From Candidatus Altimarinota bacterium (GTDB taxonomy: Bacteria; Patescibacteriota; Gracilibacteria; UBA1369; GCA-2718715), in contig JBESAV010000001.1 of the NCBI GenBank assembly GCA_041242255.1, forward strand, positions 576,001-640,000: a stretch of DNA of 64,000 bases, given 5' to 3'. The notes under the pieces were generated by a model, which worked only from the letters and a program-made list of their open reading frames with translations, was not told the origin of the DNA and searched no databases. Positions within the stretch are counted from its first letter, which is position 1; each line of letters begins with the position of its first letter. The position numbers and the translations under genes were made by a program. Positions 3,765 through 64,000 of the stretch are shown one piece after another.

Positions 3765-5309
3765 ATGAAATGGGTAATTTATGTTAGAAAGTCTAGTGAG
3801 GACGCAAACAAACAGGTAAGGTCCCTCAAAGACCAAATCAAGGTATGCCAAGAACTAGCAAAAAGGGAAGGCTACAATGTTGTAGAGGTATTCCAAGAGA
3901 TAAAGTCTGCTAAAAAATCGGGTAATAGACCAGAGTTCAACAGAATGTTAGATGGTTTAAGGCAGAACAAATATCAAGGAATACTATCATGGGCACCCGA
4001 TAGACTTTCTAGAAACATGAAGGAAGCAGGGGAGATCATCGATATGCTCGACAATGAAGTTATCCTCGATCTAGACTTTGCAGCACACGCATTCGTTAAT
4101 GATTATAATGGGCTAATGACGTTAGGTATTTCCTTTGTGATATCAAAGCAATATTCTGATAGGTTAGCCCATAACATCTCCAGAGGTAACAAACAAAAAC
4201 TAAAAGAAGGTAAGCATTTAGGTCGATATGTACACGGGTATATAGCTGATGATGTTACACAGCATTACCAGATAGATGAACGTATTGCAGAGAATGGAAA
4301 GACATTTTATGAGCTGATAAAAGAAGGATTCCAAATGCGACTAAAAGGTAACTCCTTAGCAACCATCACCAAATACATCAATGATAATGGGTACTATAGA
4401 GAGACTAAGCAAAGCAAAACTATCCAAAAAATGACACAGGGAAAACTAAGCAATATGTTTAAGGACCCAATATACTATGGAGAGATTCATACATATGAAG
4501 AACCGATAGACCTTGTAGAGATACATTGCTTTTTACCAATGATCACAAAAGAGGAATACGAGATGCTACAAGACTATAAACCAACCGGTATCAGTTCACA
4601 TACACATAATTGGCCATTCATAGAGCTAGTTAAATGTGGAGACTGTGATTGCAATATGCGTGCAGGTAAATCTACATCAGGGACAGGGCAGAAGTATTTG
4701 TATTACTGGTGTGAAAATAAAGAGTGTGGAGATAAAAGAAAGAAACAAGGCAAGACAAAGTTCCCTACTATCAGAGCAAAGGTTGTTATAGAAGCCTTAC
4801 AAAATGCTCTAGCAGATCTAAATCTAGATAAAGCTATATACAAGAACTATGGAACACAATACGCAGAGGAGGTCCATAAGTACAAAACAAATATTGCCAC
4901 ACAAAAGAGAGCAGCTAGAAGAGCCCTTAATAACTTCGAGAAGAAAAAAGAAGAGCTAGAGTTCAAAAAGATACGTGATGGGCATTCATGGTCCAAATCA
5001 GAGCAAGCTAGATACAATAAAGAGATAAAGTTCTACAACAAAAAGATCAACACCTTAACTAGGAATATTGATGATCTAGAAAAATCTATGCCAAAAGAAG
5101 TAGACCTAAAAAGTTTCTTGAACTCGTTGAATATGGCTTCTACAAGGTTTCCTCGATATGATTTAGAGACGATGGACTCATTAGCCAAAAATGTGTTCTT
5201 GAACTTAGTTGTTAAGGACGGAAAAGTAGCATCAATAAGCTATAAAGAGCCCTTTGCAAGTATGCCAAAAACGGCTAAATCCAGACTTGGTGCACCAGAG
5301 AGGACTTGA
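3765..5309 (+). CDS. Large serine recombinase (resolvase + recombinase + Zn ribbon + coiled coil)
   Basis: YVRKSS catalytic motif, DRLSRN, CGDC...YYWC zinc ribbon; the last codons overlap the tRNA-Leu antisense strand. Confidence 0.93.
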   Translation: MKWVIYVRKSSEDANKQVRSLKDQIKVCQELAKREGYNVVEVFQEIKSAKKSGNRPEFNRMLDGLRQNKYQGILSWAPDRLSRNMKEAGEIIDMLDNEVILDLDFAAHAFVNDYNGLMTLGISFVISKQYSDRLAHNISRGNKQKLKEGKHLGRYVHGYIADDVTQHYQIDERIAENGKTFYELIKEGFQMRLKGNSLATITKYINDNGYYRETKQSKTIQKMTQGKLSNMFKDPIYYGEIHTYEEPIDLVEIHCFLPMITKEEYEMLQDYKPTGISSHTHNWPFIELVKCGDCDCNMRAGKSTSGTGQKYLYYWCENKECGDKRKKQGKTKFPTIRAKVVIEALQNALADLNLDKAIYKNYGTQYAEEVHKYKTNIATQKRAARRALNNFEKKKEELEFKKIRDGHSWSKSEQARYNKEIKFYNKKINTLTRNIDDLEKSMPKEVDLKSFLNSLNMASTRFPRYDLETMDSLAKNVFLNLVVKDGKVASISYKEPFASMPKTAKSRLGAPERT

Positions 5310-5374
5310 ACCTCCACCCAGCTAAGCCGGACTAGCCCCTCAAGCTAGCGCGTCTACCATTCCGCCACTGGTGC
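5288..5374 (-). tRNA. tRNA-Leu(GAG)
   Basis: Cloverleaf GCACCAG/CTGGTGC, anticodon arm CTAGC-TTGAGGG-GCTAG, long variable arm, encoded CCA. Confidence 0.97.
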
Positions 5375-42884: not shown

Positions 42885-42914
42885 AAACCCATTTAAATTA
42901 GGTTTATTTTACAC

Positions 42915-46764: not shown

Positions 46765-46908
46765 TCATATAATTTATTTATCATATAATTATACAATAAA
46801 TAGCTGATTAAATAAACACTAACATGCATCGATTAGTATAAATCTATAGATAAGATTTCGCATCTGTAACCGAAGCATATATAATCAAGCAAAATCTAAC
46901 ACAATACT

Positions 46909-49542: not shown

Positions 49543-49595
49543 TCCTAAACTACACACAACAAAAAAGCTTATCTTCACAAAAAAGGTAAGCTTTT

Positions 49596-50066: not shown

Positions 50067-50117
50067 AATCTAAATTTAAACTACCAAAATTGTAACTGAT
50101 TTAATTAAAACCCACAA

Positions 50118-50663: not shown

Positions 50664-50715
50664 ATAATTCTTATTAACTCACTAAATTTACAAAACAAAT
50701 CCCTTTTTGGCAAGC
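50641..50715 (+). repeat. 75-bp direct repeat, copy 1
   Basis: Identical to 52494-52568. Confidence 0.95.
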
Positions 50716-50721
50716 AAGCCG

Positions 50722-50750
50722 TTGACAAAAGTAGAATCTGTAAGTAGTAT
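50722..50750 (+). promoter_or_regulatory. sigma70 promoter of the ABC-F unit
   Basis: TTGACA-N17-TAGTAT. Confidence 0.7.
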
Positions 50751-50770
50751 TTGAACATATAAACACAAAC

Positions 50771-50957
50771 ATGACAAACGTCCTAGAATTATATATATCA
50801 AAAACAACCAACCAAGCGTATTTAGCATGGAAGTCTAGGTCGTGTAGTCTTTGTCGAACTGTTGCTCATTTACAAGTGTAAATGAGGGTAATAAAACAAA
50901 GGTTTTATCATCTCTTTCACGCTTGTTAAACATTTACACCGTACTATAGGTGTTTTT
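50771..50957 (+). promoter_or_regulatory. uORF/attenuator leader of the ABC-F gene
   Basis: 36-aa uORF at 50771-50881; mutually exclusive pairings; terminator-like hairpin at 50936-50957. Confidence 0.65.
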
Positions 50958-50980
50958 ATTTATATGAGTAACTAAACAAG

Positions 50981-52423
50981 ATGTTAATTATCAAAAATTT
51001 AAACCTTAAAGTCCTAGACAACCACAAGGAAACCTTAATCAAAGAGGTGAATTTATCCTTAGATTCTAGTTCAAAGTCTAAGGTAGCCCTCATCGGAGAA
51101 AATGGCTCAGGAAAATCAACTCTCTTAAAAGCAATTTATAATAATCTAAACAGTTGTATAAATATTCAAAATGAAAAGATATTATACTTAGAACAAACAA
51201 AAAAATTTCCAGAAAATCAACTTTTTGGCGAGATTCTTGAACAGCACATTGATATTAATTCAGAATATTACAAAATTGATATAATTTTAGACGAATTTTC
51301 TCTTCAAGAAGATATAGTACTGAAGCCCGTGAAACATCTAAGTGGAGGAGAGCTTCTTAAACTACAGCTTGCTGAGCTAATGATTCAAGACCCTACTATA
51401 CTTTTATTAGACGAACCTACAAATCATTTAGATCAAGATGCAAAAATATTTTTATCAAATTTTATTAAAAATTTTACAGGTTCAATTCTACTAGTAACTC
51501 ACGATAGGGAATTTATTCAAAACACAACAAATCAAATTTGGGATATTGACCCTGTGACTAAGACTCTTCATAAGTTTACAGGCACTTTTAAAGATTGGCG
51601 TATTCAAAAAGCAAACAAAATACAAAAATCTAATCATATGCATAATAGTATTCAATCTGAGATTCAAAGCATTCAGAGTTGGTTAACTGCAAATCAATCA
51701 CATCCAAAGTACAGATTTAGCGCCATTGTAAAAACAAAAAAACAAAAAATTGAAAAGCTTAAGGCAAAATTAGATGATATTCAAAAATATAAAGATAAAA
51801 AAATAACTCTTACAAAAAATTCAAATCTAACTTATAAACAAAACCTACTTATCTCATACGAGTTCATAGAGCATCCTTTGTACGGTAATTTAAAAGGTAA
51901 AATTTACAACCAAGACCAAATTTTACTTACAGGTAAAAATGGTTCCGGGAAATCAACACTTTTAAAGTATTTATCAAATCCAGTTAATATCCAATCAGTT
52001 TATCCAATTAAAAATCCTAAAACTAGAGTTAACATATTTCATAATAAAGAATTAAAAATATTTACTTTGAGTCAGTCTTCAAAGCTTCCACAAAGTAAAA
52101 CTGTATATGAAATATTAGTAAGCAATAACAAGTTTAATCACACAAAGGTTTTCCAATCTATGGCAGATTTACGCCTAAAACATTTATTAAAGCATAAATT
52201 ATCTGATCTTAGTGGAGGAGAACAAAAAAGAGTTGAGTTAGCAATTTTAAGTGCTCATCAACCTGACATGATTTTACTGGATGAACCAACAAATCATTTG
52301 GATATCTATACGCAGGAACAAATTCAAAATTTCCTTAAAGACACACAAGTAACTTTTATTATAGCTTCTCACGACAATTTCTTGATAGACAATCTGAATT
52401 TCAAAAAATACATTCAATTGTAA
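50981..52423 (+). CDS. ABC-F family ATPase (possible antibiotic-resistance type)
   Basis: Two NBDs (GENGSGKS and GKNGSGKS; LSGGE and LLDEPTNHLD each twice), coiled linker, no TM segments. Confidence 0.88.
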   Translation: MLIIKNLNLKVLDNHKETLIKEVNLSLDSSSKSKVALIGENGSGKSTLLKAIYNNLNSCINIQNEKILYLEQTKKFPENQLFGEILEQHIDINSEYYKIDIILDEFSLQEDIVLKPVKHLSGGELLKLQLAELMIQDPTILLLDEPTNHLDQDAKIFLSNFIKNFTGSILLVTHDREFIQNTTNQIWDIDPVTKTLHKFTGTFKDWRIQKANKIQKSNHMHNSIQSEIQSIQSWLTANQSHPKYRFSAIVKTKKQKIEKLKAKLDDIQKYKDKKITLTKNSNLTYKQNLLISYEFIEHPLYGNLKGKIYNQDQILLTGKNGSGKSTLLKYLSNPVNIQSVYPIKNPKTRVNIFHNKELKIFTLSQSSKLPQSKTVYEILVSNNKFNHTKVFQSMADLRLKHLLKHKLSDLSGGEQKRVELAILSAHQPDMILLDEPTNHLDIYTQEQIQNFLKDTQVTFIIASHDNFLIDNLNFKKYIQL

Positions 52424-52435
52424 GAATTATTAATA

Positions 52436-52465
52436 CAAAAGATCGCCTTTTGGGTGATCTTTTTG
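52436..52465 (+). terminator. Intrinsic terminator
   Basis: aaaagatcgcc-tttt-gggtgatcttttt hairpin. Confidence 0.75.
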
Positions 52466-52493
52466 TAATGATTCATGTAGACCTATTTAACTC

Positions 52494-52568
52494 AAAAGCT
52501 TCCTTTCTACAACCATATAATTCTTATTAACTCACTAAATTTACAAAACAAATCCCTTTTTGGCAAGC
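52494..52568 (+). repeat. 75-bp direct repeat, copy 2
   Basis: Identical to 50641-50715. Confidence 0.95.
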
Positions 52569-52681
52569 TGACCCATCTAAACCAAGAAAACAATCCCATA
52601 CTTAGCCAAACTATATTCATCAAAAAAACTTGTTTGGACAAATATTTACAAATATTGTTGATACGAATTTAAGACAATTCA

Positions 52682-53086
52682 ATGTCCATACTAAAATTTG
52701 AAAACGCAACTAAATATCCATCTAAATATCCAGAGATTGAAGCTGTAAGTTTGGGAGAACCTATTTTCTCATCTCGCTCAGAAGAAATACAAGCAAAACT
52801 CTTAGGTGTCCTTATAAAAGACCTTAAGGCATTATACCCTGACAAAAATCCTGAACCGACCAATATAAATACTCAAGATCCAGAAAGTGACTCTACAGTT
52901 TTTTATGGTATAAAATCTGAAACAAATAATGATTCAAATTACGAGACAACAATAAGCTTTGACCATAAAGAAGACCCTCACAACCCAGGGCAGCAAATCT
53001 ACCGCACTTTAACAGCAACATTCAAGTCTAACCAAATTACCTCTCTAGGAGTATCTTGGTCCTGGGAGCCAAACCTAAAAGCCTAA
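52682..53086 (+). CDS. Hypothetical protein
   Basis: 134-aa ORF. Confidence 0.6.
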   Translation: MSILKFENATKYPSKYPEIEAVSLGEPIFSSRSEEIQAKLLGVLIKDLKALYPDKNPEPTNINTQDPESDSTVFYGIKSETNNDSNYETTISFDHKEDPHNPGQQIYRTLTATFKSNQITSLGVSWSWEPNLKA

Positions 53087-53118
53087 AAAAAGACCACCAT
53101 TCCAAGGTGGTCTTTTTT
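53086..53118. terminator. Bidirectional terminator
   Basis: aaaaaagaccacc-attccaa-ggtggtctttttt between convergent genes. Confidence 0.8.
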
Positions 53119-53133
53119 ATGATTAATTTGAAA

Positions 53134-54231
53134 CTAAACCTTATCAACATAGTCACCATAACCTCTTTCTTCCATCTCAGCTAAAGGTACAAATTCAAGC
53201 GCTGCACCATTCATACACCATCTTTCTCCAGTTGGTTCAGGCCCATCTTGAAACACATGACCTATATGATTATCTCCGTACTTAGATCTCACCTCAGTTC
53301 TAGGAAGAATAAGTTTATAATCAGGCTTAGTTACAACAAACTCATTCGAAATAGGGCGAACAAATGAAGGCCAACCAGTCCCTGAATCAAATTTATCCTT
53401 TGATGAAAACAAAGGCTCTCCAGATAATATATCTACATAAATTCCATCTTCATAGTTTTTATCCAAGTTCCCCTCACTGAAAGGTTTTTCAGTACTGTCT
53501 TTTTGTGTAACTTTATATTCAATCTCACTTAGCTCTTCTTTCAAAACCTCATCAGAAGGCTTTTGATAAGACGCCCAAACACTTTTACTATTCCCAAATT
53601 CATCTAATCGATCACCCCAAACCCCCTCGATAAAAGCATCTCTTCCACTAGCTCTTCTATAAGTATTGTATCTTCCAGGATTCTTCAGATAATAATCTTG
53701 ATGATATTCTTCAGCTCTGTAAAAGTCATACCCCATCTCTACAGCAGTAACTATTTCAGATTCAAAAACACCTTCTTCATTTATTTCATCAATGACTCTC
53801 AAAGCAATCTCTTCCTCTGATTCATTGTTTGGGTAGATAGCAGAAGTATAAGAGTACCCCCTATCTCTAAAAGAACCACCTTCATCAGTTGGATCGTGGT
53901 GTCTAAAGAAATACTGCACTAACGTTTCATAATCTACTACCTCAGGGTCATAAACAACTCTTACAGTTTCACGATACCCTTCATGAGATTTATATGTAGG
54001 GTTTTCAGCTTCTCCACCCATAAATCCTGAAATAGCTTCTTCAACTCCCACTAATTTTTCAAAGTCTCTCTCCACACACCAAAAACAACCACCAGCAAAG
54101 TAAGCACTTTCAAGTTCATCATAATCTTTCACCTCCAAAATAGAGGTATCTCTAGTTAAACGGTCGTGAGCATAAAACCCACCAACAAATACAATAAAAG
54201 CCACAATAATACCTATCAAAATTTTCCCCAT
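53134..54231 (-). CDS. msrAB: Fused methionine sulfoxide reductase MsrA/MsrB with N-terminal anchor
   Basis: FAGGCFWC, AEEYHQDYY, KFDSGTGWPSF, GHVF.DGP..TGERWCMN. Confidence 0.95.
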   Translation of the reverse strand: MGKILIGIIVAFIVFVGGFYAHDRLTRDTSILEVKDYDELESAYFAGGCFWCVERDFEKLVGVEEAISGFMGGEAENPTYKSHEGYRETVRVVYDPEVVDYETLVQYFFRHHDPTDEGGSFRDRGYSYTSAIYPNNESEEEIALRVIDEINEEGVFESEIVTAVEMGYDFYRAEEYHQDYYLKNPGRYNTYRRASGRDAFIEGVWGDRLDEFGNSKSVWASYQKPSDEVLKEELSEIEYKVTQKDSTEKPFSEGNLDKNYEDGIYVDILSGEPLFSSKDKFDSGTGWPSFVRPISNEFVVTKPDYKLILPRTEVRSKYGDNHIGHVFQDGPEPTGERWCMNGAALEFVPLAEMEERGYGDYVDKV

Positions 54232-54387
54232 ATACGCCTATTAAATTAAACTAAATCTAAAATAACAAATTTTCAGATAAAACTCCTTTATCAAGCTATA
54301 AGTTCTTGACCTGTAAACTAAAATGCAACTTTAGCCCTATTAAAAAAGGTTTTACTTTCATAAAATACAAAAAAATTAACAAAACAA

Positions 54388-57300
54388 ATGTTTTACACAA
54401 AACAAATCAAAAAAGGCTTAATGCTCTTTTTGTTTTTGGGAGTTCTTTCGCTTACTTCCATAGCAAGTGCCGCCACAATCACAGTTAATACCGATGCCGA
54501 TAACACCACAGCAGGTGATGGTGTATGTACATTAAGAGAGGCGATAAATAATTCTAATGGTGATGTAGACACCACTTCAAGCGATTGTACACCGGGAGCA
54601 GGCGCAGACACTATTGTATTTGATCTCCCAGGAGCAACTAGAATAACAGTAGCCACTGAATTACCAGCTATTACAGACACAGTTGATATTGTAGGTCAAT
54701 CTCAAGGAGCCTCTTCATGTCTAGATAAAAACACTTTAGAAATGGAGCTCACTACTAGTCAGCAGGGAATATCAGGTTTAATCTTTGACTCTGGTTCAAA
54801 TGGGAGTTCACTCAGTGGGTTTTACATTCATAATTTTACAGCTGCATCTTTTTCAGGTTTCGGAGCAGTCGAATTAAACACAGAGGTACAAGTTTCATGT
54901 AATGTTTTCGGTATAGACGCTACCGGATCTGTTTCAGAAAATATGTATGGGATAATTGTTGAAGGAGCAAATTCTGTAATCGGAGGGCCAAATCCAGAAG
55001 ATGGAAATGTAATTTCAGGTAGTGCTATAGATGGAGTCAGAATTTCTGGTGCTTCTACAACAAATGTAACCGTATCGAATAACTATATTGGTACTAACAT
55101 AGCTGGATCTTCTGAAATACCCAATCAAAGTCAAGGTGTAAGAACAGTTTTAAGTTCTCAGGCAGAGATAGGACCCAACAATGTTATCTCAGGTAACAAC
55201 TCATCAGGGATAAGAATTACTTCACCAAATGTAAATGTATTTGGGAATATTGTTGGTCTTAATGCAGCTGGAGATGCAGCTATACCAAACAGCACTGGAA
55301 TATTCTCAACTGCAGGTGACTTAATTATAGGAGGTGGTACTGAAGCTGATAGGAATATTATCTCTGGTAATGATGCGTCTGGTATATTTATTGACACTTC
55401 AGATTCTAACATCCAAATCCAAGGTAATTATATAGGAGTTAGTCAAGATGGCTCAGCTTCTATAAGTAATGGCGGTGATGGAGTTAACATCGAAGCTATT
55501 GCCCCAATTTTAATTGGAGGTGATACCCTTGGACAGGGTAATGTTATTTCAGGGAATTCCGGTAATGGTATTCATACTCAAAACAATAGTAATGGTGCAG
55601 AAATTAAAGGGAATATAATAGGTTTAAATGCTGCTGGTGATACTGCAGTTCCTAATTTATTTGACGGGATACTTGGTAGAGCTAACAACCTAGTTATAGG
55701 TGGAGACACTATTGCCGAAAGAAATATTATTTCAGGAAATGGTAGCGATGGTATTGAAAGTTCATTTTTCTACTCTGGTCATACAATCCAAGGTAATTAT
55801 ATAGGAGTTAGTCAAGATGGCTCTTCAGATATTGGTAATGGAAGTACTGGTATCACAGCAACAGATAGCCAAATTGGAGGTCTCAATCCTGGTGAAGGAA
55901 ACATAATTTCAGGAAATGGTGATGTAGGTCTAGACATTTCATCAGGTACGATTCAAGGTAATTTAGTTGGACTAAACGCATCTGGAACCTCTGCTATACC
56001 AAACGACACTGGTGGAATATCTGCATTTGGAACAGCAGTTGAAGAAAATATAATCTCAGGAAACACAGGTGTAGGTTTGGAGCTTGGAGGTGACAATGCA
56101 ACTATATTTGGTAATTACATTGGAACAAGTTCAGATGGTACATTTGCAGTACCCAACACATCTCATGGAGTAGTTTTATCAGGTGATTCTATTCAGGTAG
56201 GTAGTACTGTCTCAGGTGAAGAAAATATAATCTCAGGAAACGGAGGTTCAGGTATAGTTTTAGATGGTACCAACATTGATATAATAGGTAATCTGATCGG
56301 TGTTTCAATCACTGAAGACGCAACAGGAAACGAGGAGTCTGGTATACAGGTTATACAGCAGTCGGAACAAGTATTTGATGGTGACGGATTTGTTACCGAA
56401 TTTTCTCCATCAAATAACATCACTATCGGTGGATTAACTTCTGACCACTCTAATACAATATCCGCAAATAGTATTGCAGGAATTTTAGTAGATGATTCAA
56501 ACACTAATATTTCAATTTTAGGAAATAATATCGGAACTGATAGTTTAGGTAACGTAGTCCCAGGTGACTTGGTAAATGATGCATTAGGTAATGGGCAATT
56601 CGCTTCAGCAGGAGAAGATTTCGGAGGTATCATTGCTAGATCTTCTTCAAGTGTATCAATAGGTAACGCAGACGGTTCAGGAGCAAATGTAATAGCTGGT
56701 AATACTGGTCCTGGAATCTTAGTTTCGCAAAATCTAACTCTTGCCGAATCAACAGTTACAATATTATCTAATTCAATATTTAGTAATTCTGGTCTTGGGA
56801 TCGACTTAGCAAATGACAGTGACGGTGACGGATTCTCAGAGTTAGAACAGGATGCCACATTAAACGACGCTGGCGATGTAGATACTGGTGCTAACTCACT
56901 ACAAAACTTTATAGAATTAACAGCTAAAACCGACAACGGTGCCAACTACACTGTAGACTATACTTTGGATACAATCTCAGGTGACTATCTTGTTCAGTTT
57001 TACGAAAGTTCACAAGCAGATCCAAGTAATTATGGAGAAGGTGAAACTTTATTAACTTCAGAAAGCATTACTCATACAGGTGGTGGTTCTGAGTCTTTCA
57101 CTGCAACTTTCTCAGTTACTGAACCAACTACATTAGTAGCAACTGTAACTCAAGACCTAGGTGGAGGATCATACGGAGCGACTTCAGAGTTCAGCTCAAA
57201 TGAAATTATAGTAGAGGAACCAGCTCCTGCTCCAAGCGGAGGAGGAAGCAATGGTTCAGGTGTTGATGCAAGCAATACAAATCCATTTGGAGGAGAAGAC

Positions 57301-57822
57301 CAAGGTTCATCTGAGCCTGACCAAGAAACTCAACCAGACGTAGCCGACAATTTCTTACCAGATGAATGTAATTACGAAAGAGCCTTAAAAGAAATAGAAA
57401 AGTTCGACGGATTTGATCAAGAAATCTCAAGGTACGAAGCTCTTCAATATGTTCTTATCATTAACTGTATTGGACTTGATGAACTTCCACAAAACCCAGC
57501 TGACTATCCTTTCTCAGATATCAATCTAGAAAGCGAAAAACTAGCTAGAGTTTTATATACAGGATACAACAGAGGAATAGTAAAAGGATATCCAGACGGA
57601 ACATTCCGCCCAGCAGATCCAATTAACTACGTTGAGCTTCTCGCTATCAATGCTAGAGCTCAAGGCCTAGCTACTGACTCTCAGGAGGACGGTACAGAGT
57701 GGTATAGCTCATACTTAACTCTTGGTCTAACTATCCGTCTAGCCATCTCAGGAATAGATTATGCAGACCCAATCACAGGTGACACTTTCTACCTAATCAC
57801 TACAACCTTCCTAAACAGCTAA
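54388..57822 (+). CDS. CSLREA-domain beta-helix surface protein with C-terminal SLH-type anchor
   Basis: Signal peptide, CTLREAI, repeated N.ISGN/GN.IG coils, GATSEFS, GIVKGYPDGTFRP. Confidence 0.88.
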   Translation: MFYTKQIKKGLMLFLFLGVLSLTSIASAATITVNTDADNTTAGDGVCTLREAINNSNGDVDTTSSDCTPGAGADTIVFDLPGATRITVATELPAITDTVDIVGQSQGASSCLDKNTLEMELTTSQQGISGLIFDSGSNGSSLSGFYIHNFTAASFSGFGAVELNTEVQVSCNVFGIDATGSVSENMYGIIVEGANSVIGGPNPEDGNVISGSAIDGVRISGASTTNVTVSNNYIGTNIAGSSEIPNQSQGVRTVLSSQAEIGPNNVISGNNSSGIRITSPNVNVFGNIVGLNAAGDAAIPNSTGIFSTAGDLIIGGGTEADRNIISGNDASGIFIDTSDSNIQIQGNYIGVSQDGSASISNGGDGVNIEAIAPILIGGDTLGQGNVISGNSGNGIHTQNNSNGAEIKGNIIGLNAAGDTAVPNLFDGILGRANNLVIGGDTIAERNIISGNGSDGIESSFFYSGHTIQGNYIGVSQDGSSDIGNGSTGITATDSQIGGLNPGEGNIISGNGDVGLDISSGTIQGNLVGLNASGTSAIPNDTGGISAFGTAVEENIISGNTGVGLELGGDNATIFGNYIGTSSDGTFAVPNTSHGVVLSGDSIQVGSTVSGEENIISGNGGSGIVLDGTNIDIIGNLIGVSITEDATGNEESGIQVIQQSEQVFDGDGFVTEFSPSNNITIGGLTSDHSNTISANSIAGILVDDSNTNISILGNNIGTDSLGNVVPGDLVNDALGNGQFASAGEDFGGIIARSSSSVSIGNADGSGANVIAGNTGPGILVSQNLTLAESTVTILSNSIFSNSGLGIDLANDSDGDGFSELEQDATLNDAGDVDTGANSLQNFIELTAKTDNGANYTVDYTLDTISGDYLVQFYESSQADPSNYGEGETLLTSESITHTGGGSESFTATFSVTEPTTLVATVTQDLGGGSYGATSEFSSNEIIVEEPAPAPSGGGSNGSGVDASNTNPFGGEDQGSSEPDQETQPDVADNFLPDECNYERALKEIEKFDGFDQEISRYEALQYVLIINCIGLDELPQNPADYPFSDINLESEKLARVLYTGYNRGIVKGYPDGTFRPADPINYVELLAINARAQGLATDSQEDGTEWYSSYLTLGLTIRLAISGIDYADPITGDTFYLITTTFLNS

Positions 57823-57841
57823 AGCCAAAAATCAACAACTA

Positions 57842-57867
57842 AAAAAGCCCCGTGTGGGGCTTTTTTT
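57842..57867. terminator. Bidirectional terminator
   Basis: aaaaagcccc-gtgt-ggggcttttttt. Confidence 0.85.
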
Positions 57868-57931
57868 GTACTCTAAATTAAAATCAGTAAAAACTTAAAA
57901 GCAAGAATGATCTTCTTTATACAAATCACAA

Positions 57932-58090
57932 TTGGCAGGCGACCTACAGCAATGTCTAAACACCTATGTTGATCAGCTTATAGAAAAGCCAGAACTAATA
58001 GATGAGTACCAAGAGTTCTTCCAATCAGTACGCGAGGCTATTACTAAAGAGTCTCTGCATACTCGGAAAAAGTCATCCCTAATATACTAA
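57932..58090 (+). pseudogene. Putative split C-terminal fragment of the recombinase
   Basis: Frame LAGDLQQCLNTYVDQ...SSLIY* has no ATG, begins at the att core and is in frame with the remnant at 60827. Confidence 0.5.
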
Positions 58091-58120
58091 TCCACATCAG
58101 GTTCTAAACCCATTATGCAT

Positions 58121-58975
58121 TTATTGGTCTAGGAATTCTTGAAGATTCTTGTAAGGCTGTTCCCCTGATATGCTTAAACCATCTAAAAGCTGCCTTAAGA
58201 TATCTCTATTTTCATCAAACAAGTTAGAATAGGTAAATGTCATAGCCTGTATACTGCCCTCATCACCAGCATAATATCTGTTGTAGTAGGTAAAGTCTGT
58301 ACCATCGAGCTTAATCTTAGTAATTAGATCTACAAACGCTGTACCATCTTTGTTCACAATGCTTTCTTCTATTATTTCAAAACTCTCACTCTCTTCTTGT
58401 AGATTGCTTTTAGCTATGCTGACTAAATTTTCTAAACCTACATTAGGCTTTTCTGCAATAATGATTGCGTAAGAGTCATTACTTGAGTTTAGCTCATACT
58501 CGGCGTCACTATTAAAGCTTTCTCTTGATACAGACCACTCTGACGCATTGTATTTAAGTGAATAGTTTACTTCTTCCCCAATCAATGTATCTATTACATA
58601 CATTCCGGTTTCTTCGTATAAATTATCAAAATTTAATGTTGCATCTGTTTCATCGTATCCTTTCAAACTTAAAAGGACTGACAAAATAAGAGCAATTATC
58701 AGCCCAAACCCAAGAAGGAATTTTATCAATATCTCACTTTTTATACTTTTCTTTACTGCGTATATCACAAGACTTAATCCCATTATTGGGAAAAACAAAG
58801 TGGCAAAGTTATAACCCAGAGCTTCTGCATTATCTAATGTGACAAGTCCAAAGTTAGGTTCTTGAATGTTAGTTATTATTGAAAAGCTAAAAAACAAACC
58901 AATAACACCAGCTAGATCTCTCTTATTTAAAGACATAATAAAACTTATATTTAAAAATACCATACAGCTTTGCAA
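58121..58975 (-). CDS. Membrane protein with extracellular PsbP-like domain
   Basis: 3 TM segments followed by a soluble acidic domain. Confidence 0.65.
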   Translation of the reverse strand: MQSCMVFLNISFIMSLNKRDLAGVIGLFFSFSIITNIQEPNFGLVTLDNAEALGYNFATLFFPIMGLSLVIYAVKKSIKSEILIKFLLGFGLIIALILSVLLSLKGYDETDATLNFDNLYEETGMYVIDTLIGEEVNYSLKYNASEWSVSRESFNSDAEYELNSSNDSYAIIIAEKPNVGLENLVSIAKSNLQEESESFEIIEESIVNKDGTAFVDLITKIKLDGTDFTYYNRYYAGDEGSIQAMTFTYSNLFDENRDILRQLLDGLSISGEQPYKNLQEFLDQ

Positions 58976-59021
58976 CGGATAAAGTAATTGAAAAAAAACA
59001 AGTTGAGTGTATTATTTAAGC

Positions 59022-59151
59022 GTCTCTCAATTAGAATTTATGGCCAAGGGCTCGCTCACTTTTTGTCTGATATGGACAATGGTGGGCACCTAGCCATATC
59101 GGTAGCCCTTCGTGGATTCTGATTGGGAGACCTAGGTGTCCTCTTTTGGAA
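59022..59151 (+). ncRNA. Conserved structured leader RNA, copy 2
   Basis: Homologous to 1868-1996; promoter TTGAAA-N16-TATTAT at 58988-59015. Confidence 0.75.
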
Positions 59152-59174
59152 CTGTAATAGATTTAATAAATTTT

Positions 59175-60467
59175 ATGTTTAAGAAAGCTTTATCCAGTAC
59201 AATTGCTCTTATGCTTTTTGCTACTGCAATCCCTGTTCAAGCACAGCAGGCAAATGTGCTTAGTGATATCTCACTAGAATCAGATTATTTCGTATCAGTG
59301 AATCATCTATACGCCAACGGTGTAATTGGCGGTTATCCTGATGGAACCTTTAAGCCAGAGAAAACTATCAGCCGAGCAGAGCTCATGAAGGTTGTAGTTG
59401 AATCAAACACTGACAACATCGATGAAACCCAGTACCAAAATTGTTTCCCTGATGTTAAAGAGGACTGGTACGCAAAATATGTTTGCTATGCCCAAGAACA
59501 AGGTTGGGTGTCAGGTTATCCTGATGGTACATTTCAACCTGCAAATCCAGTAAAGAGAGCAGAGGCAGTTAAAATGATAGTAAACGCCTTTAAACTAGAC
59601 CTAACCTCTACAACAGAACTACCACTTGATGTCCCAGCAGATTCATGGTTTGCTCCTTTTGTAATTGAAGCACAGTCGAGAGGATCACTAGATCTAGTAG
59701 TTGATTCTTTTGGTCCCGCAGAGGATGCAACCAGAGGCTACGTATCAGATATTCTATACAAACTCCTCACTGTTGAAGAAACAGGCCTACAATCCTTCGA
59801 TGAGTACATGATAGAAGGACCTTACTTAGTTACTAGAGTTGTAGACGGAGATACAGTCGACGTCGAAGCAAACGGTGAGACCATGAGACTCAGGTTGATT
59901 GGTGTAGATACACCCGAAACAGTTCATCCCAACAAAGATGTAGAGCTATACGGTCCTGAGGCATCTGCGAAGGTAACAGCTGACTTACTCAATACTTACA
60001 TTCTGCTTGAATCAGACATCACTCAATCGGACAAGGATGTATACGACAGATACTTAAGATACGTTCGCCTGCTAGATGGAACCAATTACAACGAGCAACT
60101 CATTAAAGAGGGTTACGGATTCGAATACACATACGACAACAATCCTTACATTTACAAAGACCGCTTTGACGAGGCAGAGCTATTTGCTAACACAAACGGT
60201 ATCGGACTATGGAATCCTGATTTAGTTGAGGGACAAACCCTGGAAGACCTCATCGAGGAAGAGCCAACAGAGAAAAATGATGAACCAACAACTGACAGCA
60301 ACAGTAATGGTCACGTGTTCTATGTAAGTAGTAAGGCTAGAACTAAATATTACTGTGACACAGACCCATCATGGGAAGATCTCTCGAAGGATAATCTTCT
60401 TAGATACGAATCAGAAGCTGAACTAAAAGCTGATTTTCCGGGTTTAGAGCTTAATCAAGCTTGTTAG
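59175..60467 (+). CDS. SLH-domain + thermonuclease (SNase) surface nuclease
   Basis: Signal peptide from ATG 59175; three SLH repeats; VVDGDT, RLIGVDTPE, DVYDRYLRYV, GLW. Confidence 0.9.
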   Translation: MFKKALSSTIALMLFATAIPVQAQQANVLSDISLESDYFVSVNHLYANGVIGGYPDGTFKPEKTISRAELMKVVVESNTDNIDETQYQNCFPDVKEDWYAKYVCYAQEQGWVSGYPDGTFQPANPVKRAEAVKMIVNAFKLDLTSTTELPLDVPADSWFAPFVIEAQSRGSLDLVVDSFGPAEDATRGYVSDILYKLLTVEETGLQSFDEYMIEGPYLVTRVVDGDTVDVEANGETMRLRLIGVDTPETVHPNKDVELYGPEASAKVTADLLNTYILLESDITQSDKDVYDRYLRYVRLLDGTNYNEQLIKEGYGFEYTYDNNPYIYKDRFDEAELFANTNGIGLWNPDLVEGQTLEDLIEEEPTEKNDEPTTDSNSNGHVFYVSSKARTKYYCDTDPSWEDLSKDNLLRYESEAELKADFPGLELNQAC

Positions 60468-60518
60468 AAGACCGGAAATATACAATAATACTCCTAATTT
60501 ATAAATTAACCATCAATA

Positions 60519-60665
60519 ATGATAGATACAATAATGACAATAATATACTTAGTAGGGAAATTTATAATTGGGTTAGTTATTATTGTACTACTCATTTCTA
60601 TAGTACTTGGAGCAGAGGCAGAATATGAGGAGTCGATAAATAGAGATAGCAATGATAATTCTTAG
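60519..60665 (+). CDS. 48-aa single-TM peptide (not in ORF track)
   Basis: MIDTIMTIIYLVGKFIIGLVIIVLLISIVLGAEAEYEESINRDSNDNS. Confidence 0.45.
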   Translation: MIDTIMTIIYLVGKFIIGLVIIVLLISIVLGAEAEYEESINRDSNDNS

Positions 60666-60817
60666 ATTACTTACTTCGAAGAGCTTACCTTACAAATGGC
60701 CACATATTCACAGACAAAGAGGTTAATATATTAAGTAGCTTAAAAGACAAAGTAGAAAAATTAAAAGAAATAGAGACCACATACAGATACAACAAGATGA
60801 TTTAGTACCCTCATACG

Positions 60818-61063
60818 AAAGTTTTTTTGAACTCGGTGAAAACGTTATGTACATGGTATTCTGAGGCCGATGGAGAGTCCAGGATTGAATTAGCAGAAAT
60901 AATCATTTCGAACTTTTATGTACACGCCGGAGAGGTCTTAGCTGTCGAGCTAAAAGAACCTTTTCATCTCTTGATAGGCGAAAAATCTCGACTGGCAGGG
61001 CTATCAGGATTCGAACCCGACCTTGCGGTTTTGGAGACCGACGTGCTACCACTGACACTATAG
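60818..61063 (+). pseudogene. 3' remnant of a large serine recombinase running into tRNA-Trp
   Basis: KVFLNSVK...LAEIIISN...LKEPF...KSRL aligns with KSFLNSLN...LAKNVFLN...YKEPF...KSRL of ORF 3765-5309. Confidence 0.75.
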
Positions 61064-61067
61064 CCCT
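60993..61067 (-). tRNA. tRNA-Trp(CCA)
   Basis: AGGGCTA/TAGCCCT acceptor stem, anticodon loop CTCCAAA, CCA end. Confidence 0.96.
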
Positions 61068-61190
61068 TTCTGAACGCAACTAAACTAAACCATCCTGCCA
61101 CCAAATTCAAGCTAATTCCACACAAAACACAAACACATAACCTCATCCAATTCTCAACACCAAATACTCCGATCACAACCCCCACAACTC

Positions 61191-61649
61191 CTACTCAAAC
61201 CAAACAGTGATCTCATAAGCCTCATCATTTTCGACCATTCCACTCGGATTTGCCTTTTGAAGTATCAAGCTCCCTCTCTTGCTAAACTCTTCCTCCCAGC
61301 TAGGATTCTCAAATTCCAATTCACCCTCAAACCCCACAAATTCTTCCGTCATCCAGGTCTCTTCACCATCTGCCAGTTCCACGTAACCTTCAATGATGAT
61401 CAGCCCATCCCAATTGGTCAAACTAACCGGAAAACTCCCTTCAAAAAACCAACTACCTCTAGCCATTCCGCTTATCTGGAGTGGGGAAGTCACAGTATCC
61501 CCATCAGAAGGTTCTTCAAGGGTAAGAGTTGCATCACCCACTTCATCAGTAATTACATCAGTATCTCCATCTACCACAACATCCATTTCCTCTTGAGCAC
61601 AACCAGCCAATACAAAAGCAAAGATACTCAACAACAATAATTTTTTCAT
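61191..61649 (-). CDS. Lipoprotein with Gmad2 Ig-like domain
   Basis: Lipobox LAGC; VTSPLQISG.ARGSWFFEGSFPV, NPSG. Confidence 0.8.
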   Translation of the reverse strand: MKKLLLLSIFAFVLAGCAQEEMDVVVDGDTDVITDEVGDATLTLEEPSDGDTVTSPLQISGMARGSWFFEGSFPVSLTNWDGLIIIEGYVELADGEETWMTEEFVGFEGELEFENPSWEEEFSKRGSLILQKANPSGMVENDEAYEITVWFE

Positions 61650-61710
61650 AATAATATCAAATTAATAGCAACACGATTATATCATGCAACCACTATAAAA
61701 AGACAATCAA

Positions 61711-61784
61711 TGGAGGCGGCACCCGGAATCGAACCGGGGATAAAGGCTTTGCAGGCCCCTGCCTTACCACTTGGCCATGCCGCC
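61711..61784 (-). tRNA. tRNA-Cys(GCA)
   Basis: GGCGGCA/TGCCGCC acceptor stem, anticodon loop CTGCAAA, U73-CCA. Confidence 0.97.
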
Positions 61785-61897
61785 ATTGATAGAACGCAAA
61801 CAAATTAAACCAAAAACCCGACAAATTCAAGCCAATACTACCGCATTGACAAAATCTGTTAAAGTTCTTAAAATTAGCAAAAATAACTTCTCCAAAC

Positions 61898-62617
61898 ATG
61901 TCCAACCACAAAAAACCAAATTCACCTGACCACAGCCAATCAAGTGAAGATTTCTCTAGTGAAACTCACCCAAAAACACCAGATCAAAGAACTCAAAGAA
62001 GATTACCAAATAGAAAGGTGGACCAAGGCGGAGGAACATGGGTTGGAGGACCTAACCGAAGTACTACTACTCCTATTCCACAAAGAAGTAGCCTCGCCAA
62101 TAAAACTCTTGGTGGCTTAAGACATTTAGCCCAAGAGCTTGGTAAAGAAGAGCCAATCCTTTCAACACCAGAATTTGATTTATTTGATATTTCAGAACCA
62201 TCAAATGATCCAGTTGATGAAACTCAACTAATACCCGAAAACTACAAGAAAAGAATTCAAGCTATTTTAGATAATAATTATTACAAACCACTTCAAACAA
62301 ATACTGACCCAGAAACAGAATCGGTAATACCAGTGTTATATGACGTGGACAGCTACACAGCTTCACAAGTCCCTCATGCTCTTTTAGCTATCTCCCTAAT
62401 GCTTAACTATATCATAGAAGATATTGAAATATTCAAAGACTACAGTCAATTTGTTTCTTCACAGACTAACTACAAATTCAATACAAGCTACATTTTCCAT
62501 ATGGCATCCGAAGAAGAATCCGGTAAAGCTCTAATAAAACAAGTTTTCGATAACTTCCGATATCAAAACTCAGATTACGAAAACATTCAATACCTAAAAA
62601 AATCATCCAACAGCTAA
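61898..62617 (+). CDS. Hypothetical protein with disordered N-terminus
   Basis: 239-aa ORF; TTGACA element upstream. Confidence 0.6.
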   Translation: MSNHKKPNSPDHSQSSEDFSSETHPKTPDQRTQRRLPNRKVDQGGGTWVGGPNRSTTTPIPQRSSLANKTLGGLRHLAQELGKEEPILSTPEFDLFDISEPSNDPVDETQLIPENYKKRIQAILDNNYYKPLQTNTDPETESVIPVLYDVDSYTASQVPHALLAISLMLNYIIEDIEIFKDYSQFVSSQTNYKFNTSYIFHMASEEESGKALIKQVFDNFRYQNSDYENIQYLKKSSNS

Positions 62618-62630
62618 GCTGAATGATTTT

Positions 62631-62716
62631 TGGTACTCGGAGTGGGAATCGAACCCACACTCACTAGGTGAACAGGATTTTAAGTCCTGCGCGTCTACCA
62701 ATTCCGCCATCCGAGC
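62631..62716 (-). tRNA. tRNA-Leu(TAA)
   Basis: GCTCGGA/TCCGAGT acceptor stem, anticodon loop CTTAAAA, long variable arm, CCA. Confidence 0.97.
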
Positions 62717-62793
62717 AGAAACATCTAGAGGACAAGCCTGCTAAATGCACAGAGATATTACAAACCTTTTCCCAAAAACTCAAATCAAAATTT

Positions 62794-63372
62794 CTACTTC
62801 ACCGCCAAAGTCTTCAAAGCTTCCACCATTTCAGCAGATTGAGCCTCAGTATCAAGCTCATCAAAAGCTCCAGTTGCTAGCCAAGCTTCATTTTCAGCTA
62901 CCACCAAAGCTTGCAAGTAAACTAACACATCTCCTTCTAGTTTTCTTTTTCCAGTAAACTCTACCAACAATCCATTACTAACACTTCCATTTGCTACAGT
63001 AGTAAATCTTTCTCGACCAACTTCTTCAGCAATCAGCAGGGATTCTTCGTTATCTTCCCAAACCGACTCATATGTTTTTTCTAGGCCGCTACTCTCATCA
63101 ACTGAAAAACTCTCCACTACTATATTAGGTGTAAAAAAAGCATCCTTATCATCTTGAACTAAAACAAGCTTAGCACTGCTTTTGTATCTTTCCTGAACCA
63201 GCTCTCCATCCAGCAGGTCCCAATTTTTTGGATATTGCATCCTAAACTCTTCAGTATCATACAAATCATAACTCTCAATAGGTAACTCATTATAGCTTAC
63301 CAATGCCTCATCCGCTCCACCACATCCACTCAGAAAAACCACGCCTACTAATAAAGTCAAAAATTTTCTCAT
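62794..63372 (-). CDS. Lipoprotein (PsbP/DcrB-like)
   Basis: Lipobox FLSGC; FRMQYPKNW, PNIVV. Confidence 0.75.
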   Translation of the reverse strand: MRKFLTLLVGVVFLSGCGGADEALVSYNELPIESYDLYDTEEFRMQYPKNWDLLDGELVQERYKSSAKLVLVQDDKDAFFTPNIVVESFSVDESSGLEKTYESVWEDNEESLLIAEEVGRERFTTVANGSVSNGLLVEFTGKRKLEGDVLVYLQALVVAENEAWLATGAFDELDTEAQSAEMVEALKTLAVK

Positions 63373-63442
63373 TTCATAACATTAAAACACTCATATTATA
63401 CATGAGTAATACTCAATTTACAGAAAATCAAAGGCTCAACCT

Positions 63443-63604
63443 CTAAGCCAAACCTTTGATTCTATCCATCAAGTTTTCCGCTTGGTCATAGTCTTCACCT
63501 GCAACCGCCTCATTGTATTGTGCTCCAAGTAAAGAACTCTGAAAATTTTTATTGAGTTCGAAGTTATTATCACCCTCGAACACTATTCTGAAGTAAATAT
63601 CCAT
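63443..63604 (-). CDS. 53-aa stand-alone UVR (UvrB/UvrC motif) protein (not in ORF track)
   Basis: MDIYFRIVFEGDNNFELNKNFQSSLLGAQYNEAVAGEDYDQAENLMDRIKGLA; own promoter and a 3' hairpin with T tract. Confidence 0.75.
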   Translation of the reverse strand: MDIYFRIVFEGDNNFELNKNFQSSLLGAQYNEAVAGEDYDQAENLMDRIKGLA

Positions 63605-63618
63605 AAGGTAATATTAAA

Positions 63619-63645
63619 TTAGCACTCCAGATTATAGAGTGCTAA
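63619..63645. promoter_or_regulatory. CIRCE element (HrcA operator)
   Basis: Perfect TTAGCACTC-N9-GAGTGCTAA overlapping the minus-strand promoter TTGACG(63654-59)-N17-TATAAT(63631-36). Confidence 0.93.
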
Positions 63646-63669
63646 TTTGAATTCGTCAATATTTTAACT

Positions 63670-64000
63670 CTATCTACTTTCAATTATCTTATCTACCAAA
63701 CCATACTTTTTAGCAGCTTCAGCTGGCATGAAGTTATCTCTATCTGTGTCTTTCTCAACTTGAGAAATCTTCTGACCAGTGTGCTTAGCAATAATCCCAT
63801 TCAATCTATCTCTAGTCTTAAGAATGTGCTCAGCATGGATAGATATATCAGATGCTTGACCCTGAGCTCCACCAAGAGGTTGATGGATCATTACTTCAGC
63901 GTTTGGTAAGCAGTACCTCTTTCCGGCAGCACCACCACATAGAAGTACAGCTCCCATAGAAGCTGCAATCCCCATACAAACTGTAACTACATCGGGTTTA
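63670..64000 (-). CDS. clpP: ATP-dependent Clp protease proteolytic subunit (5' part outside window)
   Basis: [29 protein letters not shown]. Confidence 0.96.

What the first reader, a model, noticed from the sequence alone, without database searches (positions are those of the whole stretch)
57923..61063. att site inside a serine recombinase gene: integration splits off an in-frame 49-aa C-terminus
Seen: the recombinase remnant reads aaa tct cga ctg gca ggg (KSRLAG) into the tRNA-Trp antisense strand. At the other end of the island, aaa tca caa ttg gca ggc (57923) repeats the junction (14/17 identical, core TGGCAGG = tRNA 3' end) and continues open, with no ATG, for 49 codons: DLQQCLNTYVDQLIEKPELIDEYQEFFQSVREAITKESLHTRKKSSLIY*. 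Circularisation at the core would join it in frame to the recombinase. Excision would also put tRNA-Trp about 65 nt upstream of the terminator at 57842-57867, whereas it now lacks an adjacent terminator. Known: attP-within-int is described for tyrosine integrases (SSV1-type, myxophage Mx8). Inference: a serine-integrase version in which the integrated and excised states encode different C-termini, possibly controlling directionality or stability.
Basis: partly seen in the sequence, partly recalled or inferred. Interest (0 to 1): 0.82.

Follow-up and report, generated by a model that had tools for sequence, protein, structure and literature searches.

The report
Serine recombinase gene crossing its att site
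A worn-down mobile island sits at the end of a tRNA-Trp gene, and its serine recombinase gene reads straight across the insertion junction into the tRNA, so the enzyme's tail must differ between inserted and free forms, though nothing yet shows that the difference matters.

Summary
The recombinase remnant (60674-61063) matches residues 395-527 of two intact large serine recombinases. Both of these also end in the peptide read from tRNA-Trp antisense. The 17-mer at the junction recurs at 57923 (14/17), exactly 3060 nt away, so in phase. The frame there is open to 58090.

Contigs from two other runs lose likeness to the window at 57945 and 57931. These points bracket the core TGGCAGG, which supports a real junction.

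The trait is family-wide. In 22 of 30 homologous loci from 205 genomes of the order, the recombinase ORF stops inside, or runs through, a convergent tRNA gene.

A functional 49-aa C-terminus is not supported:
- The tail has no credible relative.
- Its codon usage is ambiguous.
- An open run of this length has about 0.06 chance.
- The intact sister element in the same window would swap only 3-5 residues.

Verdict: this is a real, decayed serine-recombinase island with the att site inside the gene's 3' end. The different C-termini are most likely a by-product.

The parts
57841..57866 (.). G+C-rich hairpin flanked by A and T runs. It is the terminator of the 1144-aa gene and would serve tRNA-Trp if the island were absent (about 65 nt from the core).
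   Evidence: (I23). It is the only minus-strand terminator-like site in 57600-61300.
57923..57939 (+). Far junction (attL-like). It is a 14/17 copy of the tRNA junction, with core TGGCAGG at 57933-57939, which is the antisense of the last 7 nt of tRNA-Trp including CCA.
   Evidence: In one search, X5 record 10 fits up to 57945 and X7 record 23 fits from 57931, each running on unlike the window.
57941..58090 (+). Open frame of 49 codons plus stop, in phase with the recombinase frame. It would be read as the recombinase C-terminus in a circular form. No ATG and no relatives.
58121..58975 (-). 284-aa predicted membrane protein with no Pfam family; accessory cargo.
   Evidence: In one search, homologs occur in 10 of 204 other genomes of the order and 0 of 9 in its own family.
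59136..60467 (+). 443-aa protein with S-layer-homology repeats and a staphylococcal-nuclease domain; cargo.
   Evidence: SLH 2.9e-27, SNase 2.6e-17. In one search, contigs of X6 and X7 lose likeness at 60467.
60468..60673 (.). A+T-rich spacer with no recombinase likeness. It is the likely scar of the deletion that removed the recombinase's first ~394 codons and other element genes.
   Evidence: no match to P0001 residues 1-394; breaks at 60467.
60674..61063 (+). Large serine recombinase pseudogene fragment (homolog of P0001 residues 395-527). It has a TAG at 60803 and a frame-shifted patch. Its last 20 codons are tRNA-Trp antisense.
60983..60999 (+). Junction at the tRNA (attR-like): AAATCTCGAC + core TGGCAGG, coding KSRLAG.
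   Evidence: K-S/Y-R-L conserved in four recombinases.
60993..61067 (-). tRNA-Trp(cca), intact, with encoded CCA. It is the integration target.
   Evidence: It lies in a conserved Leu(taa)-Cys-Trp cluster in 7 family relatives.
3765..5309 (+). Comparator: an intact 514-aa large serine recombinase in the same window. It ends ...KSRLGAPERT and overlaps the 3' end of tRNA-Leu(gag) (5288-5374, minus strand) by 22 nt.

Best explanation
Window 57933-60999 is the internally deleted remnant of an integrative element. The element used a large serine recombinase (LSR) to insert at the very 3' end of tRNA-Trp.

In this LSR family the attachment site lies within the last codons of the recombinase gene, just after the last conserved protein motif (KxPF...K-S-R-L). 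In the integrated state the frame therefore runs on into the antisense of the tRNA until a stop turns up. For tRNA-Trp that is 20 codons.

In a circular, excised form the same frame would run into the other end of the element. Here that end is open for 46 more codons, up to 58090.

Shown:
- the remnant;
- the frame running into the tRNA in intact homologs;
- the family-wide pattern;
- the in-phase repeat;
- the breakpoints at the far junction.

Inferred:
- the crossover lies within TGGCAGG;
- the residues beyond the junction are dispensable, so the two C-termini are a passive consequence of where attP sits, not a regulatory device.
For: 1. The remnant matches P0001 residues 395-527 at 67% identity. 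P0001 and P0003 carry Resolvase + Recombinase domains. Both end ...RLAGLSGFEPDLAVLETDVLPLTL, identical to the window's frame through the tRNA.

2. I examined 30 loci: 29 of the 30 loci one search listed for P0001 among 205 genomes of the order, plus the window's own intact LSR locus (L009, fetched). In 22 of them the LSR frame stops inside, or runs through, a convergent tRNA gene. Nineteen tRNAs were found by ARAGORN. Three are tRNA-Met genes split by a group I intron.

3. The 17-mer repeat at 57923 is the only match of 13/17 or better in the window. It is one of three matches of 14/17 or better in 2 Mb of both strands, and it is in phase (offset 3060).

4. X5 record 10 fits 56892-57945 and then has 1686 letters that lie on nothing in the stretch laid. 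X7 record 23 fits 57931-58609 after 518 such letters. The two breaks bracket the core.

5. The intact sister LSR at 3765-5309 has its far end 12.4 kb away (the best genome-wide match). Read in phase there, it stops after ...KSKLGSPK, against ...KSRLGAPERT at the tRNA.

6. Beyond KxPF the LSR tails differ among family members.

7. The 284-aa cargo gene is patchy in the order: 10 of 204 other genomes.
Against: - No excised form and no attP-spanning sequence was seen.
- The repeat alone is statistically marginal (3.5% of shuffles with the core, 30% without).
- A 16/17 match to the junction 17-mer exists elsewhere in the genome with no tRNA nearby. Near-matches therefore do occur outside att sites.
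- The rebuilt attP and attB show no dyad symmetry above background.
- I could not read the contig letters beyond the breakpoints. They show a boundary of variable DNA, not what is joined there.
- The relatives are only family-level, and the 18 kb between lgt and tRNA-Trp is unshared with them. No exact empty site confirms the boundary.
- An open run of 46 or more codons has only about 0.06 chance in frames outside long ORFs. The tail's residues look protein-like. A function is therefore not excluded.
Confidence: 0.62

Rival explanations
1. The 46-49-aa frame is a functional, state-specific C-terminal extension of the recombinase. The free element makes a long-tailed enzyme and the integrated one a tRNA-tailed enzyme. 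The tail tunes direction, activity or stability, as C-terminal tags do in integration-dependent immunity of mycobacteriophages.
For: - The frame is in phase and open for 49 codons, with no start of its own other than a TTG inside the core.
- P(open run of 46 or more codons) is about 0.06.
- Its codon score (0.13) is in the top 10% of spurious open runs.
- X7 carries this stretch at 9 differences in 679 nt.
- Passages of PMC8092301 describe attP inside repressor genes with tagged C-termini. The abstract of PMC7253208 describes attP inside SSV-type integrase genes.
Against: - No relative of the tail was found in 205 genomes of the order (best foreign E 0.015).
- None was found among longer proteins of the 5.8-billion collection.
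- Among 1.84 billion representatives there was one hit, E 7.6e-4, at 22% identity in an 870-aa protein with 4 stretches.
- The Atlas gave no usable hit.
- The codon score is only at the 12th percentile of real coding windows.
- The X5 variant loses likeness 6 nt past the core.
- The sister element would swap only 3-5 residues.
- Most family members stop within 12-22 nt of the tRNA end.
Confidence: 0.15
2. The repeat at 57923 is not the element's end. The true far junction was lost in the deletion that removed most of the element, or it lies elsewhere in the 18 kb between lgt and tRNA-Trp. The breakpoints only mark the edge of a generally variable region.
For: - The left arms alone are not significantly alike (30% of shuffles).
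- A 16/17 match occurs elsewhere with no tRNA nearby.
- In relatives, lgt is the neighbour of tRNA-Trp. In this genome 18 kb of mostly large surface-protein genes lies between them.
- G007 also has large genes there and no recombinase.
Against: - Two independent contigs break at 57931 and 57945, within 8 nt of a 7-nt copy of the tRNA 3' end.
- The repeat is the single best match in 128 kb of both strands and lies in direct orientation and in phase.
- The spacing restores a tRNA-to-terminator distance of about 65 nt.
Confidence: 0.15
3. 57932-58090 is a stand-alone 52-codon gene of the element that starts at the TTG inside the core. An example would be a small recombination directionality factor placed next to the att site.
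For: - ORF listing finds a 52-aa TTG-started ORF.
- From recall, not from a call: small directionality factors of serine integrases are diverse and often lack detectable relatives.
Against: - No purine-rich ribosome-binding stretch precedes the TTG (sequence).
- There is no other canonical start in frame.
- No relatives were found.
- Pfam gives only sub-threshold hits.
Confidence: 0.05

Closest known systems
Phage-type large serine recombinases (serine integrases such as Bxb1; names recalled, general properties from passages of PMC8092301)
   Same: - N-terminal resolvase domain plus recombinase domain in the intact homologs.
- A short common core: 7 nt identical here, against 5-8 bp quoted for Int-S systems in PMC8092301 (passages read).
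- An element bounded by short direct repeats.
   Different: - The passages read (PMC8092301, PMC6109161) say serine integrases typically insert within protein-coding genes and tyrosine integrases at tRNA genes. Here, and in 22 of 30 related loci, the target is the 3' end of a tRNA gene.
- The recombinase frame itself crosses the junction.
SSV-type tyrosine integrases of archaea (attP inside the int ORF; abstract of PMC7253208 seen)
   Same: The recombination site lies within the integrase reading frame. The target is a tRNA gene. Integration changes the gene product.
   Different: - Tyrosine versus serine catalysis.
- SSV-type integration splits the gene into two inactive parts. Here only residues beyond the last conserved motif are exchanged, so an intact enzyme is expected in both states.
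Integration-dependent immunity of mycobacteriophages (attP inside the repressor gene; passages of PMC8092301 read; PMC3694055 seen as search listing and start of abstract only)
   Same: Integration replaces the C-terminal residues of an element-encoded protein because attP lies in its 3' end. Integrated and free forms therefore differ in their C-termini.
   Different: - There the protein is a repressor (and the integrase carries a tag), the integrase is of the tyrosine type, and the C-terminal tag has a demonstrated role.
- Here the protein is the serine recombinase itself, and no role of the tail is shown.

Membership tests
Large serine recombinase | N-terminal resolvase catalytic domain (PF00239) with the serine-containing motif | tested here: not met
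   The window's copy at 60674-61063 lacks everything before homolog residue 395, so it is a pseudogene fragment. The domain is present in P0001 (8.2e-23), P0003 (7.2e-22) and the window's other LSR at 3765-5309 (2.2e-21). The alignment shows Y-[LV]-R-K-S in all three. That this serine is catalytic is recalled, not tested.
Large serine recombinase | Recombinase domain (PF07508) and a C-terminal zinc-ribbon/coiled-coil region | tested here: inconclusive
   PF07508 was found in P0001, P0003 and the 3765-5309 protein. The zinc-ribbon family PF13408 was found only in the 3765-5309 protein. The remnant aligns to the C-terminal 133 residues of P0001 at 67% identity. No structure was predicted.
tRNA-targeting integrative element | Intact target tRNA at one end and a copy of its 3' end at the other, in direct orientation | tested here: met
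   tRNA-Trp is intact. A 7-nt copy of its 3' end sits within a 14/17 repeat at 57923-57939.
tRNA-targeting integrative element | Presence/absence or replacement polymorphism with breakpoints at the repeats | tested here: inconclusive
   Contigs of X5 and X7 break at 57945 and 57931. No contig joins the left flank directly to the tRNA, and the letters beyond the breaks could not be read.
attP-within-gene systems (state-dependent gene product) | The reading frame of an element gene crosses the crossover site | tested here: met
   Integrated form: the frame of the remnant, P0001 and P0003 continues from KSRLAG/KYRLAG into tRNA antisense. In 22 of 30 related loci the frame stops inside or runs through a tRNA gene.
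attP-within-gene systems (state-dependent gene product) | Excised-form product observed, and a functional difference between the forms | not testable with these tools
   Searching with P0001 residues 395-527 found no protein with the alternative tail; only two proteins came back, both tRNA-tailed. Searching with the tail itself also found nothing credible. Function needs an experiment.

The most novel reading that the evidence does not exclude
A lineage of large serine recombinases in these small-genome (CPR-like) bacteria has its attP inside its own 3' end and targets tRNA 3' ends. Every integration or excision therefore rewrites the enzyme's C-terminus. In the tRNA-Trp subfamily the free form carries a 46-aa helical tail that is lost on integration. 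This would act as a built-in switch of recombination direction or protein stability, without a separate directionality factor.
Probability: 0.12. Interest if true: 0.8.

Novelty: new variant of a known kind. Interest (0 to 1): 0.5.

Why it matters
According to the passages I read, serine integrases insert into protein-coding genes through very short cores, while tRNA targets belong to tyrosine integrases. This is a whole lineage of serine recombinases that sit convergent with tRNA genes and whose own reading frame crosses the junction.

Three things follow:
- These short-core elements become easier to delimit in poorly known genomes, because the recombinase stop codon lies inside a tRNA.
- Such recombinase genes are annotated with odd tRNA-derived C-termini, and this explains why.
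- There is a concrete, testable question: does swapping the C-terminus between the states affect direction or stability?

If the tail proved functional, it would be a serine-recombinase counterpart of integration-dependent switches. If not, the finding still documents an unusual target choice and att-site placement. Seven literature searches found no description of this arrangement for serine recombinases. That is not proof that none exists, and supplements were closed.

Tried and rejected
**Relatives of the tail**
- The genome search over 205 genomes of the order gave only chance-level hits.
- The search for homologous proteins for longer proteins found none.
- phmmer against 1.84 billion representatives gave one weak, repetitive hit that I do not take as a relative.
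- The Atlas gave no usable hit.

**Close relatives of P0001 with DNA context**
- Viral contigs and genome contigs gave none.
- Metagenome contigs gave three loci at 24-27% identity, too distant to use.
- The cargo genes in viral contigs gave none.

**Sequence tests that did not discriminate**
- Dyad symmetry of the in-silico attP and attB was at background level (best 10 of 22 pairs near the core; 68% of random windows do as well). It is uninformative.
- A short 15-nt near-palindrome that I saw by eye is not significant under that test.
- Codon-usage scoring of the tail sits between coding and spurious frames (likelihood ratio near 1).
- Alignment of the tRNA body against the tail region shows no decayed tRNA fragment beyond the 7-nt core (86% of shuffles score as high).

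**Far ends of six other elements**
- G090 gave a credible far end: a displaced, degenerate tRNA-Met 3' fragment. There the recombinase stop lies within the repeated part.
- G070 gave a partial one (8 + 11 nt).
- G056, G184, G044 and G189 gave nothing convincing.
- I dropped an early idea that long in-phase frames at these far ends are systematic. In G090 the frame I had read lies in displaced host sequence.

**Exact empty site**
- The relatives are only family-level. The downstream neighbour of tRNA-Trp (lgt) lies 18 kb away in this genome.

**Read laying**
- Parts without cover in X5, X6 and X7 (for example 58008-59009 in X5, and the flanks in X7) are not used as evidence.
- The joint 54376 to 58623 in X4 has a 21-letter side and was ignored.
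- No joint from the left flank to the tRNA was listed.

The contigs of P0001 (71.9 kb) and P0003 (33.8 kb) could therefore not be read.
Supplements of the prophage papers might list serine-integrase att sites at tRNA genes that I could not see.
Full report
**1. What is in the sequence**

tRNA-Trp(cca) lies at 60993-61067 on the minus strand. On the plus strand a frame reads ...KEPFHLLIGEKSRLAG. It then continues through the antisense of the whole tRNA (LSGFEPDLAVLETDVLPLTL) to a stop at 61061-61063.

I searched with the broken frame, using X at its TAG. This found P0001, a 527-aa protein with Resolvase and Recombinase domains, at 61% identity. A tblastn of P0001 on the region aligns its residues 395-527 to 60674-61060 at 67% identity. 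The remnant has a stop at 60803 and a patch that fits another frame. Nothing upstream matches residues 1-394.

A second intact homolog, P0003 (532 aa), came from a search with the C-terminal 133 residues of P0001. Both intact proteins end ...RLAGLSGFEPDLAVLETDVLPLTL. That is the same tRNA-Trp antisense peptide as in the window. So the remnant is the 3' quarter of a large serine recombinase (LSR) gene. In intact relatives, too, the frame crosses from element DNA into the tRNA gene.

**2. The far junction**

- The 17-mer AAATCTCGACTGGCAGG at 60983 has one other match of 13/17 or better in the window on either strand: 57923, at 14/17.
- In the whole 1.0-Mb genome, both strands, there are two further matches of 14/17 or better (228701, and 16/17 at 462702 on the minus strand).
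- The 462702 match lies antisense in a 105-codon frame downstream of a 727-codon gene, with no tRNA nearby. I cannot explain it.
- The two copies are 3060 nt apart, so they are in the same codon phase.
- Local alignment of the flanks shows that likeness is limited to these 17 nt. With the core, 3.5% of shuffles score as high. Without it, 30% do.
- There is no likeness between the tRNA body and the DNA right of the far core.

On sequence alone the repeat is suggestive, not compelling.

**3. Independent support from other samples**

I laid contigs of four public runs on 54000-64000.

- In run X5, a 2740-nt contig fits 56892-57945 with 25 differences. Its other 1686 letters lie on nothing in the stretch.
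- In run X7, a 1197-nt contig fits 57931-58609 with 9 differences. Its first 518 letters lie on nothing in the stretch.

The two breaks bracket the core TGGCAGG (57933-57939). One variant keeps the left flank and changes what follows. The other keeps the island's left end and changes what precedes. That is the behaviour expected of a recombination junction.

Contigs of X6 and X7 also lose likeness at 60467, the stop of the nuclease gene. This fits an internal deletion or replacement between that gene and the recombinase remnant in this genome. I could not read the letters beyond any break.

**4. The trait belongs to the family**

P0001 finds homologs at E <= 1e-10 in 89 of 205 genomes of the order. 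I examined 30 loci: 29 of the 30 loci one search listed for P0001, plus the window's own intact LSR locus (L009, fetched).

- In 19 loci the recombinase frame ends inside, or in one case runs through, a convergent tRNA gene found by ARAGORN. The tRNAs are Met, Pro, Gly, Val, Leu, Ser and Arg.
- In 3 more loci the frame ends in a tRNA-Met that ARAGORN missed because it carries a group I intron in the anticodon loop (RF00028, about 70 bits each).
- That gives 22 of 30.
- Of the other 8: two run off the contig end with tRNA-like tails; one stops 92 nt short of a tRNA-Pro; one holds Ns; four are unresolved.

Most frames stop 12-22 nt into the tRNA. In tRNA-Met the stop is a TGA in the T-loop antisense. 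In tRNA-Trp that position reads TCG, and the frame runs on for 20 codons.

**5. The sister element in the same window**

An intact 514-aa LSR (3765-5309; Resolvase, Recombinase and zinc-ribbon domains) overlaps tRNA-Leu(gag) by 22 nt and ends ...KSRLGAPERT.

- The best genome-wide match to its junction lies 12.4 kb to the left.
- That far end carries a degenerate copy of about 70 nt of the recombinase 3' end plus about 20 nt of the tRNA 3' end (score 69; 0 of 2000 shuffles as high). This looks like the relic of an earlier tandem element.
- Read in phase, the far end gives ...KSKLGSPK and a stop.

In this element the two states would differ by a handful of residues, so a long alternative tail is not a family feature.

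The peptide K-S/Y-R-L just before the tRNA end is shared by the Trp- and Leu-targeting enzymes despite 34% overall identity. Gly-targeting members have K-S/T-R-F there. The far copy in the Trp island also reads KSQL. This could reflect half-site likeness between attB and attP, or a tiny relic of an older element. I cannot tell which.

**6. The 49-codon frame**

If the junctions are right, a circular form must read from ...KSRLAG into DLQQCLNTYVDQL...SSLIY. That follows from the sequence. Whether it matters is a separate question.

Against a functional tail:
- No relative in 205 genomes.
- None among longer proteins.
- One weak, repetitive hit among 1.84 billion representatives.
- No Atlas hit.
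- The two intact homologs found are both tRNA-tailed.
- X5 loses likeness 6 nt after the core.

Neutral:
- The codon-usage score of 0.13 lies at the 12th percentile of real coding windows and in the top 10% of spurious open runs.

Mildly for a functional tail:
- An open run of 46 or more codons has probability 0.063 in frames outside long ORFs.
- The frame has no start of its own apart from a TTG in the core.

I conclude that the different C-termini are real as a prediction, but most likely a by-product of attP lying just past the last conserved motif.

**7. Context**

- The Leu(taa)-Cys-Trp tRNA cluster is conserved in 7 family relatives.
- In three of them the gene downstream of tRNA-Trp is lgt, which in this genome lies 18 kb away at 42063-42884. 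The relatives are too distant to give an exact empty site.
- One relative (G003) has a distant LSR abutting its tRNA-Trp (23% identity to P0003 over 522 residues).
- The island's 284-aa gene has homologs in 10 of 204 other genomes of the order and in none of its own family. This fits accessory DNA.

**8. Comparison with what is known**

- Passages of PMC8092301 state that Int-S systems have common cores of 5-8 bp and integrate within open reading frames, while most Int-Y sites overlap tRNA genes. PMC6109161 says the same in a passage.
- The abstract of PMC7253208 describes SSV-family tyrosine integrases that carry the recombination site inside their ORF and are split by integration.
- PMC8092301 (passages) describes integration-dependent immunity, with attP inside repressor genes and tagged C-termini.
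- My seven literature searches found no description of serine recombinases whose own frame crosses a tRNA-end att site. This is the result of those searches only.

I therefore rate it a new variant of a known kind. The mechanism (serine recombination at a short core) is ordinary. The target choice and the placement of attP in the gene's last codons are unusual. The regulatory reading stays speculative.

Noticed in passing
window 3765-5374, with its far end about 12.4 kb to the left (window -7230 to -7140, genome about 568.8 kb): An intact LSR element sits at tRNA-Leu(gag). Its far end holds a degenerate ~70-nt copy of the recombinase 3' end plus ~20 nt of the tRNA 3' end. This suggests an older tandem element that decayed.
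   Followed up: partly
L013 3078-3291, L019 3093-3329, L022 2696-2880: Group I introns (RF00028, about 70 bits) sit in the anticodon loop of tRNA-Met genes in three genomes of different families of the order. Each tRNA is also the target of an LSR.
   Followed up: partly
window 61068-61710 and 61785-62630: In family relatives tRNA-Leu(taa), Cys and Trp lie 7-160 nt apart in four of seven loci. Here a Gmad2-domain lipoprotein gene and a 239-aa ORF sit between them. The 50 nt upstream of tRNA-Trp and of tRNA-Cys are 74% alike (61072-61121 versus 61792-61841). Contigs of X6 and X5 skip these two stretches.
   Followed up: no
genome 462702, minus strand (outside the window): A 16/17 match to the tRNA-Trp junction 17-mer, reading KSPLAG in one frame. 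It lies antisense in a 105-codon frame downstream of a 727-codon gene, with no tRNA nearby. Unexplained.
   Followed up: partly
window 59070-59151 versus window 1914-1996: The region upstream of the SLH-nuclease gene of the Trp island is 82% identical over 83 nt to the region upstream of the 434-aa gene of the Leu island. This may be a shared leader or promoter of the two islands' cargo genes.
   Followed up: no
L054 4792-6306 (G003); also L053 and L056 left of tRNA-Trp: G003 has a distant LSR (23% identity to P0003 over 522 residues) abutting its tRNA-Trp. In G004 and G005 the DNA next to the tRNA reads like decayed recombinase C-termini; this is my reading of the sequence only. The tRNA-Trp 3' end looks like a recurrent target in this family.
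   Followed up: partly
window 42884-57822: About 15 kb between lgt and the island is not syntenic with the family relatives. It holds three very large proteins (1204, 877 and 1144 aa, two of them with SLH domains), a bPH-domain protein, an ABC-type ATPase and a fused MsrA-MsrB.
   Followed up: no
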